In this document: positions 7,907 through 64,000 of the stretch, piece by piece | How the letters are laid out: the number at the start of each line of letters is the position of its first letter | How positions within the stretch are numbered: position 1 is the stretch's first letter | Source of the DNA: Shigella phage KNP5 | DNA length: 64,000 bases | Sequence record: KX452698 | Strand: one strand, 5' to 3' | Notes under the pieces: generated by a model | Seen by the model: only the letters and a program-made list of their open reading frames with translations | Databases searched by the model: none | Told to the model about the DNA's origin: nothing | Translations under genes and position numbers: made by a program

Positions 7907-8103
7907 CCCACATAATTTTCTTCAAGCCAATTAATAACATCCAACGCATTATCAAAAGTTGAACCATCTACTATGTCTTCTGTTTCATAATCAAGAATAT
8001 CTAAGTCTATTCTTCCATCAACAATAGGCCATAAACAAAATAGATATTTCTTTTCTTTTTCAATTTTATCGCAAAGTTGATAAATCTTTTCTATGTTATT
8101 CAT
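7903..8103 (-). CDS. hypothetical protein (cd.5 position)
   Basis: 66-aa ORF. Confidence 0.5.
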   Translation of the reverse strand: MNNIEKIYQLCDKIEKEKKYLFCLWPIVDGRIDLDILDYETEDIVDGSTFDNALDVINWLEENYVG

Positions 8104-8291
8104 AAGTTTTCCATGGTAAAGGCAGTTTAGTTTTCTTTACTGTTAGTTCAACATCAGGATTCTTTTCTCTTAATTTAAGGCATTCCTCCCAAGCTCTGAT
8201 TTCACTAGTGAATACACAAAATTGCCATTACTAGTACCAACTAAACCGCTATTTACAATAACAATAGACCAAGTTTCATGATGCCACGCCA

Positions 8292-9517
<1,226 letters not shown>

Positions 9518-28603: not shown

Positions 28604-32726
<4,123 letters not shown>

Positions 32727-33413: not shown

Positions 33414-33686
33414 TTATTTGTTTGTATACATCTCTAGATATCGATATACACCCTCAAAACCCTCGTTGAATTCGTCGATGAGGGTTTTCTTATCTTCTTG
33501 AGTTAATTCAGAAACAATTTTACGGAATGAATTCTGATTCAACTTTCTACCTTCATGCGTTACTCCAATCTCATTCAGAAATGCAATAAAATTAGCACGA
33601 TTCTCAACAATATCTTCTCGGGAAAATTTAATCAAAATAGACGCAACAGTAATAATTTCACGAACTGTATCAATATTTTTATTCAT
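33414..33686 (-). CDS. asiA: anti-sigma70 factor AsiA
   Basis: 90-aa ORF MNKNIDTVREIITVASILIKFSREDIVENRANFIAFLNEIG... identical in length and essentially in sequence to T4 AsiA as recalled. Confidence 0.9.
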   Translation of the reverse strand: MNKNIDTVREIITVASILIKFSREDIVENRANFIAFLNEIGVTHEGRKLNQNSFRKIVSELTQEDKKTLIDEFNEGFEGVYRYLEMYTNK

Positions 33687-33698
33687 TAACTATACCAC

Positions 33699-33851
33699 TC
33701 AATTAGTTGACTTTGCTATAATATCATCAGACGTTTGATTTGTAAACTGGTCTGTGTTATTTTCTTCAAAAATTTTTTCTACGAATTCCTTGAACGACTC
33801 ACGTTCCTGAGCTACATTATGCTCGATTACTTTTTCAAGATTATGACTCAT
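33699..33851 (-). CDS. small ORF (50 aa) coupled to arn
   Basis: Hand-translated MSHNLEKVIEHNVAQERESFKEF...; its ATG overlaps the arn-frame TGA (ATGA). Below the track threshold. Confidence 0.4.
   Translation of the reverse strand: MSHNLEKVIEHNVAQERESFKEFVEKIFEENNTDQFTNQTSDDIIAKSTN
33725..33754 (-). promoter_or_regulatory. T4-type early promoter for asiA
   Basis: GTTTACA on the minus strand (plus gtaaac 33749-33754) with -10-like TATAGC/TATTAT downstream. Confidence 0.45.
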
Positions 33852-34126
33852 TCGAAATAATCTTCAATTTCATAATCAAGAACATAAATCATTATAGTTT
33901 TTAATACATCATCAATACTTTTTCCTGGAGCTGGAATTACGTAAAAATATCCCGCCTTTGAATTATCTTTATAAGTTCCAACCAAGAAATCATTATTCTC
34001 AAGATGCAGTTCTTCAACTAATTAATTAACAATTGAGTGGTATAAATTTGGTAGTAACTTGTATAGCTTTTCTAGAATATCAATTTTGATTGTGTATTGA
34101 ACCACAGACTGAGAATCAATAATCAT
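33848..34126 (-). pseudogene. arn: arn (anti-restriction nuclease, McrBC inhibitor) interrupted by in-frame TAA at codon 35
   Basis: Hand translation from ATG 34126: MIIDSQSVVQYTIKIDILEKLYKLLPNLYHSIVN, then TAA (plus tta 34022-34024), same frame continues LVEELHLENNDFLVGTYKDNSKAGYFYVIPAPGKSIDDVLKTIMIYVLDYEIEDYFE to TGA; 92 codons in total. Confidence 0.6.
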
Positions 34127-34209
34127 AGACCTTCCCCTTATGTTTCTGTTTGCGATTAGATTCTTTAAACGCTTTCTTCTTATCTTTATGGACAGAAGCT
34201 TTATTAAAA

Positions 34210-34428
34210 TTATGTTTTGCGACTAAATTGTTCATAGTGCTGAATTACCTCTCTCAAACATTTGCATGTGAATGAAAACTTTTTAGCTACACCACATTCA
34301 AATATATGTTCTCTTAAATCACGTGTGTCAGTATATCCCATCTCAACAATAAAATGCCGTATTAGATTTTTATCTTTATCATTGAGAGAATTGAAATAAT
34401 CGGATTTTGAATTAATTTCCCTGGCCAA
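34210..34428 (-). CDS. hypothetical protein
   Basis: 72-aa ORF with Cys-x2-Cys pairs. Confidence 0.45.
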   Translation of the reverse strand: MAREINSKSDYFNSLNDKDKNLIRHFIVEMGYTDTRDLREHIFECGVAKKFSFTCKCLREVIQHYEQFSRKT

Positions 34429-59141: not shown

Positions 59142-59306
59142 TTACTCTTCTTTTTCTTTAGATTCCTCTTTTTTCTTTTTAGGAATCTGTTCAGGACCTT
59201 TATTTACTACAGCGCCTGACGTTGTTCCAGTGGAGATATTTTCAGGATTACCACCTGAATCTCCAGCGACCATATCTTCTTTAATAAATTCTTTAAACGT
59301 TTTCAT
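59142..59306 (-). CDS. hypothetical protein (61.1 position, 54 aa)
   Basis: Hand-translated MKTFKEFIKEDMVAGDSGGNPENISTGTTSGAVVNKGPEQIPKKKKEESKEKEE. Below the track threshold. Confidence 0.45.
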   Translation of the reverse strand: MKTFKEFIKEDMVAGDSGGNPENISTGTTSGAVVNKGPEQIPKKKKEESKEKEE

Positions 59307-59318
59307 ATTAGCCTCTAA

Positions 59319-59612
59319 TTATTCACCTACCACTTCAGCGATGATATTTTTATTATTAAAGTTTTTATCGCAATACAGAACATAATTATACTGCATTACA
59401 CCACCAGACTTAAGCTGTTTTTGCACTTCAGCTTTCATTTCAGGACGGTCACGCTCAACGATATTCATAATATCTGCTTCAATTTGAGTTTCAACTTCAG
59501 TCTGATCTGCAGTCATAGACCATTCACACAAATCTTTGTCATAACCCGCCATAGCAGGCTGAGCAGCACAAGAAGATAAAGCAAAAATTGTAGCAAAGAT
59601 AAATTTTTTCAT
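59319..59612 (-). CDS. sp: Spackle periplasmic protein
   Basis: 97-aa ORF with signal peptide MKKFIFATIFALSSCAAQPAMA; matches T4 Sp in length and sequence as recalled. Confidence 0.8.
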   Translation of the reverse strand: MKKFIFATIFALSSCAAQPAMAGYDKDLCEWSMTADQTEVETQIEADIMNIVERDRPEMKAEVQKQLKSGGVMQYNYVLYCDKNFNNKNIIAEVVGE

Positions 59613-63203: not shown

Positions 63204-64000
63204 TTAATCAACTGCTATTGGATGAATAGCATTAAACTTATGAAACGCTTCTGATTTTTCTTTGCGTGAAACACACATGCGAAGAACCTTTAATGGCTCG
63301 TCTTCTTCACCCAACGATTTTCTCTTTTCAATATTCGATGTTTTCCAACGAGCTTGCTCTGGAAACTCTCTATTGATTTGCTCAAGAGCTCTATTATGTT
63401 TTGAATTACTACGAATTGAACTACATCCGCCAGGAGCCTGTGCTTTTCCAGACACAACCAGATATTTGAACAAGGCCAAATGCGGATAACCTTGATTAAT
63501 TAAATTGAGAAATGCATACATATCTTCGCATAAATCAATTTTTCCATACCCAATTTGTTCTGTTGTAAGTTTCCCGAGGTCATACCAAGTATTCGTGAAT
63601 CCATATGAATTTTCACGATAATTACCCCAAGATGAAGTAATTTTAAAAATAGGTAGACGAGCATGACCGTGATAATACCCGCAATCCATGGCATCTTCAA
63701 CGTATTGAATCAATTCATAGAACTGTTCACGAGTTAACTGATTAATTTTATCTACGCAGCGACGATCATCTTTCTTTCGCATTGAACTCATACGAATAGT
63801 AGTATCATCATCAATCATCCAGATTCGTTGACCTGCATACATATCAGTAATTGCTTTACGAGTACCAGCAATTCCATTAACATCATCAGGAATAGTTATA
63901 ATTTTAGCTCTAGACCCATAAGCGTCATAATAAGCTTTTTCTTCATGTTCACGTACTACAATATGAGGTTCATAATCAGTCGGAAACATATCAAGGGCAG
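63204..64000 (-). CDS. putative DNA-modifying glycosyltransferase (partial; N-terminus beyond window end)
   Basis: ORF at the position of T4 beta-gt but unlike T4 beta-gt as recalled; contains a DxD-like motif (WMIDDDTTI). Frame stays open upstream of the ATG at 63989 to the window end. Confidence 0.45.
   Translation of the reverse strand, partial: ALDMFPTDYEPHIVVREHEEKAYYDAYGSRAKIITIPDDVNGIAGTRKAITDMYAGQRIWMIDDDTTIRMSSMRKKDDRRCVDKINQLTREQFYELIQYVEDAMDCGYYHGHARLPIFKITSSWGNYRENSYGFTNTWYDLGKLTTEQIGYGKIDLCEDMYAFLNLINQGYPHLALFKYLVVSGKAQAPGGCSSIRSNSKHNRALEQINREFPEQARWKTSNIEKRKSLGEEDEPLKVLRMCVSRKEKSEAFHKFNAIHPIAVD

What the first reader, a model, noticed from the sequence alone, without database searches (positions are those of the whole stretch)
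33848..34126. arn (anti-McrBC) carries an in-frame ochre codon at codon 35
The minus-strand frame from ATG 34126 reads MIIDSQSVVQYTIKIDILEKLYKLLPNLYHSIVN, hits TAA (plus tta 34022-34024), then continues in the same frame for 57 more sense codons (LVEELHLENNDFLVGTYKDNSKAGYFYVIPAPGK...EDYFE) to a TGA that is ATGA-coupled to the next small ORF. The total of 92 codons equals T4 Arn, whose residue 35 I recall as Glu (GAA), so one G-to-T change explains it. Either this phage is Arn-deficient, which matters only when its DNA is under-glucosylated, or it is a sequencing error. Neither half appears in the ORF track.
Basis: partly seen in the sequence, partly recalled or inferred. Interest (0 to 1): 0.6.

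Follow-up and report, generated by a model that had tools for sequence, protein, structure and literature searches.

The report
Nonsense-broken arn gene in T4-like phage
This T4-like phage carries a single-base change that puts a stop codon one third of the way into arn, a small non-essential gene whose product blocks the host McrBC restriction enzyme, so the record describes either an ordinary natural knock-out or a base-calling error.

Summary
On the minus strand, ATG 34126 opens a frame of 34 sense codons, then TAA (34024-34022), then 57 sense codons, then TGA (33850-33848) overlapping the next gene's ATG. The frame is collinear over all 92 residues with T4 Arn (PDB 3WX4, E 3.8e-52). Residue 35 is Glu/GAA in T4 and in every relative examined.

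The window is a Tequatrovirus of the pSs-1 group, about 99.9% identical to phage KNP1. Within arn it differs from KNP1 only by this G-to-T change.

The TAA allele is absent from 483 arn-bearing phage records and from three contig collections. The rest of the window is clean: arn is the only one of about 114 genes with an internal stop.

The 34-residue product ends mid-helix and lacks almost all the acidic surface. I found no suppressor tRNA in KNP1, no recoding route and no second arn copy. As written, the phage is Arn-null.

Whether the change is biological (my estimate about 0.65) or a consensus error (about 0.28) needs the reads. Either way this is a point-mutated copy of a well-known accessory gene, so interest is low.

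The parts
34025..34126 (-). arn codons 1-34 (N-terminal stub, the only part expected to be translated)
   Evidence: Hits Pfam DM_Arn model positions 1-26 (48 bits) and phrog_3151 positions 1-34.
34022..34024 (-). Premature ochre codon TAA at codon 35 (ancestral GAA, Glu). The mutated base is 34024.
   Evidence: It is private to the window compared with KNP1, pSs-1, sb1, Ec_MI-02, SsoM_113 and an IMG/VR contig. The TAA query found 0 records against 300 for the GAA control.
33851..34021 (-). arn codons 36-92, still in frame and undegraded but untranslated as written
   Evidence: Hits Pfam DM_Arn model positions 28-79 (110 bits). Identical to KNP1.
33848..33850 (-). Natural arn stop TGA, overlapping the asiA.1 start as ATGA
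34022..34029 (.). PacI site TTAATTAA created by the mutation (ancestral TTAATGAA on the coding strand)
34130..34139 (-). Shine-Dalgarno-like AAGGGGAAGG upstream of the arn ATG (intact)
   Evidence: Read directly from the sequence. Identical in all relatives aligned.
33699..33851 (-). asiA.1 (50 aa), whose start is coupled to the arn stop. Coupling is probably lost because ribosomes now terminate 171 nt upstream.
   Evidence: phrog_3762 E 9e-37. Named asiA.1 in T4 and SsoM_113. The loss of coupling is an inference.
33414..33686 (-). asiA (anti-sigma-70, 90 aa), intact
   Evidence: 100% identical to pSs-1. A promoter-like site at 33746-33718 lies just upstream (consensus match only).
34116..34235 (-). 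39-aa ORF (DUF7230, RB32ORF249c-like) whose end overlaps the arn start by 11 nt
63207..64000 (-). Beta-glucosyl-HMC-alpha-glucosyltransferase (T2/T6 type), cut by the window edge. This is the context for how much Arn matters.
   Evidence: phrog_842 E 4e-80 and Pfam TAGT. 100% identical to the pSs-1 280-aa protein.

Best explanation
arn in this phage is a genuine loss-of-function allele (E35ochre), produced by one G-to-T transversion in an otherwise intact gene. Ribosomes start at the normal ATG and stop after 34 residues in a strong TAA-T context. The stub ends in the middle of helix alpha2. It lacks two of the three beta-strands, both C-terminal helices and 12 of the 16 acidic residues, so it cannot form the DNA-mimic surface, and the phage makes no functional Arn. 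The phage remains viable because arn is an accessory gene. Its DNA is presumably hydroxymethylated and glucosylated, so McrBC is normally blocked without Arn. The cost should appear only on unglucosylated DNA in McrBC+ hosts, and possibly in H-NS-related effects. A side effect (inferred) is weaker translation of asiA.1, which normally starts on the arn stop codon. What is shown: the sequence, gene identity, privacy of the allele, absence of rescue routes and the structural position of the stop. What is inferred: that the base is real, and the phenotype.
For: Sequence and collinearity. The only difference from the 99.9%-identical KNP1 within arn is this single base, and it is derived in the window. 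The window looks accurate. It shows 33 substitutions and no indels against KNP1 outside KNP1's own N runs. Most differences are clustered synonymous patches typical of natural recombination. arn is the only one of about 114 pSs-1 CDS with an internal stop. A 1-bp frameshift in another small ORF is reproduced exactly in KNP1, which shows the assembly reports real lineage-specific lesions faithfully. The downstream 57 codons are undegraded, so the event is recent. The structural argument rests on an AF2 model with pLDDT 90 that matches 3WX4 at TM 0.94, with the stop inside helix 26-43. The stub has net charge 0 against -9 for the full protein. No rescue route was found. KNP1's 10 tRNAs have no suppressor anticodon. 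TAA ends 68 of 110 genes and TAA-T is the commonest terminator context. The other two frames stop within 3 codons, and there is no second arn copy in the window or the KNP1 genome. A defective arn is tolerated elsewhere: T4 record MT984581 has a C-terminal frameshift.
Against: No reads are available, so the base call itself is unverified. The allele is a singleton: it is seen in no other record or contig. arn is otherwise intact at 90% identity or better in 483 of 483 phage records, which indicates purifying selection and makes a null allele unusual. One nonsense change among about three isolated private substitutions is not statistically remarkable either way.
Confidence: 0.65

Rival explanations
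1. Sequencing, consensus or editing error, or a minority variant fixed in the consensus. The phage population actually carries GAA and makes normal Arn.
For: The allele is unique among all public sequences searched. Codon 35 is invariant Glu in all family representatives. arn is intact in 483 other records. The nearest relative has G. The change sits in an AT-only low-complexity stretch (TTAATTAATTA).
Against: Consensus substitution errors are rare in assemblies of this quality. Here there are no indels and no other broken gene in 64 kb, and the lineage-specific frameshift at about 8222 is reproduced exactly. Error-prone platforms mostly give homopolymer indels, not isolated transversions, and none are seen.
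Confidence: 0.28
2. The stop is real but bypassed, by an ochre-suppressor tRNA, programmed readthrough, or frameshifting/hopping, so that full-length or near-full-length Arn is still made.
For: The 57 downstream codons are perfectly preserved and in frame. T-even phages carry their own tRNA cluster, which lies outside this window.
Against: The 10 tRNAs of the 99.9%-identical KNP1 all have sense anticodons. TAA is the normal terminator of 62% of the window's genes, and TAA-T is the commonest context, so an efficient ochre suppressor would be harmful. The +1 and +2 frames hit stops within 3 codons, and re-pairing of tRNA-Asn on the next AAT lands on TAG. The preserved downstream codons are equally explained by the mutation being recent, because the region is identical to KNP1.
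Confidence: 0.04
3. The null allele was selected: the phage lost Arn because Arn itself triggers an abortive-infection or defence system in the isolation host. This is a special case of the best explanation.
For: Literature only. PARIS is suggested to recognise T4 Arn as it does Ocr (PMC9122126, PMC10802264). arn was among the accessory genes that were lethal in some but not all ECOR strains (10.1101/2023.04.06.535777).
Against: Nothing in the sequence distinguishes selection from drift. No recurrence of arn loss was found. The isolation host is unknown. The PARIS authors could not isolate T4 escape mutants (PMC10802264).
Confidence: 0.06

Closest known systems
Bacteriophage T4 Arn (anti-restriction nuclease; PDB 3WX4; Pfam PF22134 DM_Arn)
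   Same: 92 codons, collinear end to end and 93% identical when codon 35 is restored. The genome position is the same, between arn.1-like ORFs and asiA.1/asiA/t. The same ATGA overlap with asiA.1 is present. The predicted fold of the 99%-identical homologue matches 3WX4 at TM 0.94.
   Different: Codon 35 is TAA in place of GAA. There are six substitutions relative to T4: F13I, F24L, I49V, L55N, N70S and H83L.
T2-type Arn (Ser70 allele)
   Same: The window allele has Ile13 and Ser70, as reported for T2 Arn. According to PMC12871103 this type does not bind or inhibit PUA-Cal-HAD. The phage also has T2/T6-type features: a glycine-rich gp38 adhesin and the beta-alpha-glucosyltransferase.
   Different: T2 Arn is intact (row H126). 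This one is truncated.
arn of T4 record MT984581
   Same: Another deposited T-even genome with a damaged arn reading frame.
   Different: There the lesion is a frameshift at about codon 87 that replaces only the last six residues. Here 62% of the protein is lost.
T7 Ocr and other phage DNA-mimic anti-restriction proteins
   Same: The same functional class as intact Arn: small, acidic DNA mimics that block host nucleases and bind H-NS (PMC12707154).
   Different: They are not homologous. They are relevant only as the precedent that DNA mimics can be sensed by PARIS, which would give a selective reason for losing one.

Membership tests
DM_Arn (Pfam PF22134) / phrog_3151 'inhibitor of MrcBC restriction' | Sequence match above the curated threshold | tested here: met
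   The restored 92-aa sequence scores 169.3 bits against a cut-off of 26. The N-terminal half scores 48.4 bits and the C-terminal half 109.6 bits. phrog_3151 E 1.5e-40. 3WX4 E 3.8e-52.
DM_Arn (Pfam PF22134) / phrog_3151 'inhibitor of MrcBC restriction' | Conserved genome position in Tequatrovirus (motA - arn.4..arn.1 - arn - asiA.1 - asiA - t) | tested here: met
   The same order is seen in the window and in T4, pSs-1, sb1, Ec_MI-02 and SsoM_113.
DM_Arn (Pfam PF22134) / phrog_3151 'inhibitor of MrcBC restriction' | Uninterrupted reading frame of about 92 codons encoding the whole domain | tested here: not met
   TAA at codon 35. The locus is therefore an arn pseudogene or null allele, not a functional family member as written.
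DM_Arn (Pfam PF22134) / phrog_3151 'inhibitor of MrcBC restriction' | Arn fold with a negatively charged DNA-mimic surface | tested here: not met
   The fold is confirmed for the intact homologue (pLDDT 90, TM 0.94 to 3WX4). The encoded 34-aa stub keeps only beta1, alpha1 and half of alpha2, and has net charge 0 against -9.
DM_Arn (Pfam PF22134) / phrog_3151 'inhibitor of MrcBC restriction' | Inhibition of McrBC restriction of non-glucosylated hmC DNA; H-NS binding | not testable with these tools
   This needs plating of galU-grown phage on mcrBC+ and mcrBC- hosts, or biochemistry. The activities are known for T4 Arn from the literature (PMC12707154).

The most novel reading that the evidence does not exclude
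The ochre mutation is an adaptive escape. In the host on which this phage was isolated, Arn (a DNA mimic) is the trigger of an abortive-infection system such as PARIS or an uncharacterised ECOR-type system. The phage escaped by knocking out arn, which it can afford because its DNA is glucosylated. With its arn+ near-twin KNP1 it would then form a natural near-isogenic pair for finding the Arn sensor.
Probability: 0.06. Interest if true: 0.5.

Novelty: already known. Interest (0 to 1): 0.15.

Why it matters
It matters little beyond correct annotation. The locus should be annotated as an arn pseudogene (or the base corrected), not left as two unannotated fragments.

If the mutation is real, the phage is a natural Arn-null Tequatrovirus with T2/T6-type glucosylation and a 99.9%-identical arn+ relative. 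That would be a convenient but minor resource for testing what Arn contributes outside the laboratory T4gt background: McrBC, H-NS, and possible sensing of DNA mimics by PARIS-like systems. It could also be relevant for phage-therapy host-range notes.

It opens no new question by itself.

Tried and rejected
1. Split arn in other phages. Annotation strings showing 'anti-restriction nuclease (x2)' for PBM-1 and EP01 turned out to be neighbouring arn.1-arn.3 genes given the same label. arn itself is an intact 279 nt in both.

2. Recurrence of the allele. Exact and degenerate TAA-allele patterns found nothing in IMG/VR, JGI metagenomes or GTDB genomes. SNP-centred 55-mers in the window background and in the T4 background found nothing in 50,697 phage records, while the GAA control found 300 records. 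The 34-aa and 45-aa fragments are not on record as called genes.

3. Suppressor tRNA. There is none in the window and none among KNP1's ten tRNAs.

4. Frameshift or hop. The other two frames terminate within 3 codons, and re-pairing on the next AAT lands on TAG.

5. Compensating paralogue. None in the window or the KNP1 genome.

6. Quasi-palindrome correction as the mutational mechanism. The change does make TAATGAATTA into the perfect palindrome TAATTAATTA. However, the corrected pair is the central dinucleotide, which a hairpin could not template, so I dropped this idea. Transient misalignment between the two AAT repeats (AAT-G versus AAT-T) could template the T, but that is only a conjecture.

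7. General sloppiness of the assembly. Rejected: there are no indels against KNP1 and no other internal stops. KNP1's unaligned stretches are its own N runs.

8. Ho et al. 2014 (PMC4175342) could not be read, so structural statements rest on the model and on 3WX4.

9. The contig encoding P0011 could not be looked up.

Full report
**Observation.**
- ATG at 34126-34124 follows a good Shine-Dalgarno-like AAGGGGAAGG.
- 34 sense codons follow (MIIDSQSVVQYTIKIDILEKLYKLLPNLYHSIVN), then TAA at 34024-34022.
- 57 further sense codons continue in the same frame (LVEEL...EDYFE), ending at TGA 33850-33848.
- That TGA overlaps the ATG of the next 50-aa ORF as ATGA.

**Identity.**
- With codon 35 restored to Glu, the 92-residue sequence aligns end to end, without gaps, to the crystallised T4 Arn protein (3WX4, E 3.8e-52). 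T4 has Glu at residue 35 and the T4 codon is GAA.
- Pfam DM_Arn (PF22134) scores 169 bits against a cut-off of 26. The two halves hit model positions 1-26 and 28-79 separately, so the stop interrupts one continuous domain. PHROG 3151, 'inhibitor of MrcBC restriction', agrees.
- The neighbourhood is the canonical T-even one: gp37, a glycine-rich T2-type gp38, holin t, then on the other strand asiA, asiA.1, arn, small arn.x ORFs and motA.

**What the window is.** It is a Tequatrovirus of the pSs-1 species group.
- The nearest record is KNP1 (KX452694; UNVERIFIED, unannotated, with N-filled gaps), at about 99.9% identity over the whole window.
- Across arn the window and KNP1 differ at exactly one base, the G-to-T that makes GAA into TAA.
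- With pSs-1 and four other relatives as outgroups, the T is derived and private to the window.

**Is the allele seen anywhere else? No.**
- A 31-mer and a background-independent degenerate 26-mer carrying TAA found nothing in IMG/VR, JGI metagenome contigs or GTDB genomes. The GAA control 31-mer did find IMG/VR contigs.
- For the 50,697 annotated phage records I used 55-mers centred on the SNP, so that every 28-base megablast seed must contain it. The TAA versions (window and T4 backgrounds) gave no match. The GAA control gave 300 records.
- tblastn shows arn in 483 records, all as a single piece with at least 80% coverage and at least 90% identity.
- Only one, T4 record MT984581, has a visibly damaged frame: a frameshift replacing the last six residues.
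- In the 5.8-billion-protein collection the family is small and nearly all members are 91-92 aa. Glu35 is invariant among the representatives.

**Quality of the window.**
- Against KNP1 there are 33 substitutions and no indels in about 62 kb. KNP1's unaligned stretches are its own N runs.
- Most differences are clusters of synonymous changes, as expected from natural recombination between related phages. Only three are isolated, window-private non-synonymous changes, and the arn stop is one of them.
- Of about 114 annotated pSs-1 CDS spanning the window, arn is the only one with an internal stop.
- A 1-bp deletion that frameshifts a 65-aa T4_Y13H-family ORF next to the PseT homologue is present identically in KNP1, and in none of 218 other records. 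The assembly therefore reproduces at least one real lineage-specific lesion.
- These points favour a real mutation over an error, but they cannot prove it.

**Consequence for the protein.**
- An AlphaFold model of the 99%-identical intact homologue P0001 (mean pLDDT 90) superposes on 3WX4 with TM 0.94 and rmsd 1.5 Å.
- Its elements are beta1 11-14, alpha1 16-24, alpha2 26-43, beta2 47-51, beta3 60-65, alpha3 71-84 and alpha4 87-91. The stop at 35 cuts helix alpha2 in half and removes two of three strands and both C-terminal helices.
- The stub has 3 acidic and 3 basic residues (net 0). The whole protein has 16 acidic and 7 basic (net -9), and -8 of that lies downstream of the stop. A DNA mimic without its acidic surface and fold is not expected to work (inference).

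**Rescue routes.**
- The window has no tRNA gene. The ten tRNAs of KNP1 (Arg, Asn, Tyr, Met, Thr, Ser, Pro, Gly, Leu, Gln) all have sense anticodons.
- TAA terminates 68 of 110 genes in the window, and TAA-T, the context of the premature stop, is the commonest terminator tetranucleotide with 41 genes. An efficient ochre suppressor would be costly, and the context favours termination.
- The +1 and +2 frames stop within three codons, and slipping of tRNA-Asn to the next AAT lands on TAG.
- The only in-frame start downstream is a TTG at codon 48, which would give a 45-aa piece lacking beta1, alpha1 and alpha2.
- There is no second arn copy in the window or in the KNP1 genome.

**Expected phenotype (inferred from the literature, not tested).**
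- Arn inhibits McrBC restriction of non-glucosylated T4 (T4gt) and binds H-NS (PMC12707154).
- The window carries the T2/T6-type beta-glucosyl-HMC-alpha-glucosyltransferase at its right edge. The DNA is therefore presumably glucosylated, and Arn is dispensable in ordinary growth.
- T4-type Arn also inhibits the PUA-Cal-HAD system, but the T2-type Ser70 allele does not (PMC12871103). The window allele has Ser70, so nothing is lost on that front.
- A local side effect is likely. asiA.1 starts on the arn stop codon and has only a weak Shine-Dalgarno sequence, so ending translation 171 nt upstream should reduce its translation.
- asiA itself is intact and has a promoter-like match just upstream at 33746-33718 (consensus match only).

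**Could the loss be selected?** Two papers raise the possibility that Arn is a liability in some hosts. PARIS may recognise Arn as it does Ocr (PMC9122126, PMC10802264). arn was also among the accessory genes lethal in some but not all ECOR strains (10.1101/2023.04.06.535777). Nothing in the sequence supports selection over drift, and no recurrence was found, so I give this a low probability.

**An unexplained coincidence.**
- The protein search returned a 57-aa 'partial' T4-type Arn (P0008) that starts exactly at Leu36.
- Its contigs are T4 DNA in Enterococcus faecalis assemblies. L015 is 100% identical to T4 and begins at the second base of codon 35. L016 begins at codon 36.
- A cluster mate, P0011, is the 45-aa TTG-start fragment called as a complete gene on another contig, which I could not retrieve.
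- This may be a chance low-coverage contig end, or an assembly-graph branch at that very base. It cannot be decided here.

**Verdict.** This is a point-nonsense allele of a well-characterised accessory gene. It is real with probability about 0.65, an error with about 0.28, and it has essentially no chance of being a recoding signal. It is ordinary and should be annotated as an arn pseudogene pending read-level confirmation.

Noticed in passing
window 8099-8292 (minus strand), deletion at about 8222: A 65-aa ORF of the T4_Y13H family (PF25744, phrog_2430), just downstream of the 302-aa PseT homologue, is frameshifted by a 1-bp deletion (GGG to GG). The same deletion is present in KNP1 and in none of 218 other phage records, so it is an inherited marker of this lineage and a second decayed small gene in the window.
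   Followed up: yes
L015 (NCBI GCA_046614045.1 JBKKEM010000083.1) 1-176; L016 (Logan SRR27475848_53881) 1-174: T4 DNA contigs inside Enterococcus faecalis assemblies begin at the second base of arn codon 35 and at codon 36, the same spot as the mutation in the window. A related 45-aa TTG-start fragment (WP_411399572.1) is called as a complete gene on another contig. This could be chance or a variant bubble at that base; it is unresolved.
   Followed up: partly
L018 (MT984581.1, Escherichia phage T4) 301-585: This T4 record has a frameshift near arn codon 87, giving ...HDYELKIISNES* where other T4 records read ...HDYEIEDYFE*. It is the only other damaged arn frame noticed among 483 records.
   Followed up: partly
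window about 59306-59322: A 118-aa pSs-1 gene (KM501444 23069-23425) has no counterpart here. The flanking genes abut, so this is a presence/absence polymorphism within the species group.
   Followed up: no
window 31935-32726 (+) and 63207-64000 (-): The phage has a glycine-rich T2/T6-type gp38 adhesin and the T2/T6-type beta-alpha-glucosyltransferase. It therefore belongs to the T2-like subgroup for receptor recognition and DNA glucosylation, even though it is classified in the pSs-1 species.
   Followed up: partly
window 33644 (asiA codon 15); L005 34166: KNP1 has Pro where the window, pSs-1, T4 and the others have Ala at AsiA residue 15. This is a KNP1-private change in an important gene, possibly an error in that UNVERIFIED record.
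   Followed up: partly
proteins P0009 and P0010 (Logan contigs): These divergent, N-terminally short Arn-like proteins differ from the consensus mainly by changes expected from C-to-T conversion (P to L, A to V, H to Y, T to I). They look like products of bisulfite-converted or damaged reads rather than real variants.
   Followed up: no
window 34022-34029: The nonsense mutation creates a PacI site (TTAATTAA). It is one of nine in the window and gives a simple restriction test for the allele.
   Followed up: yes
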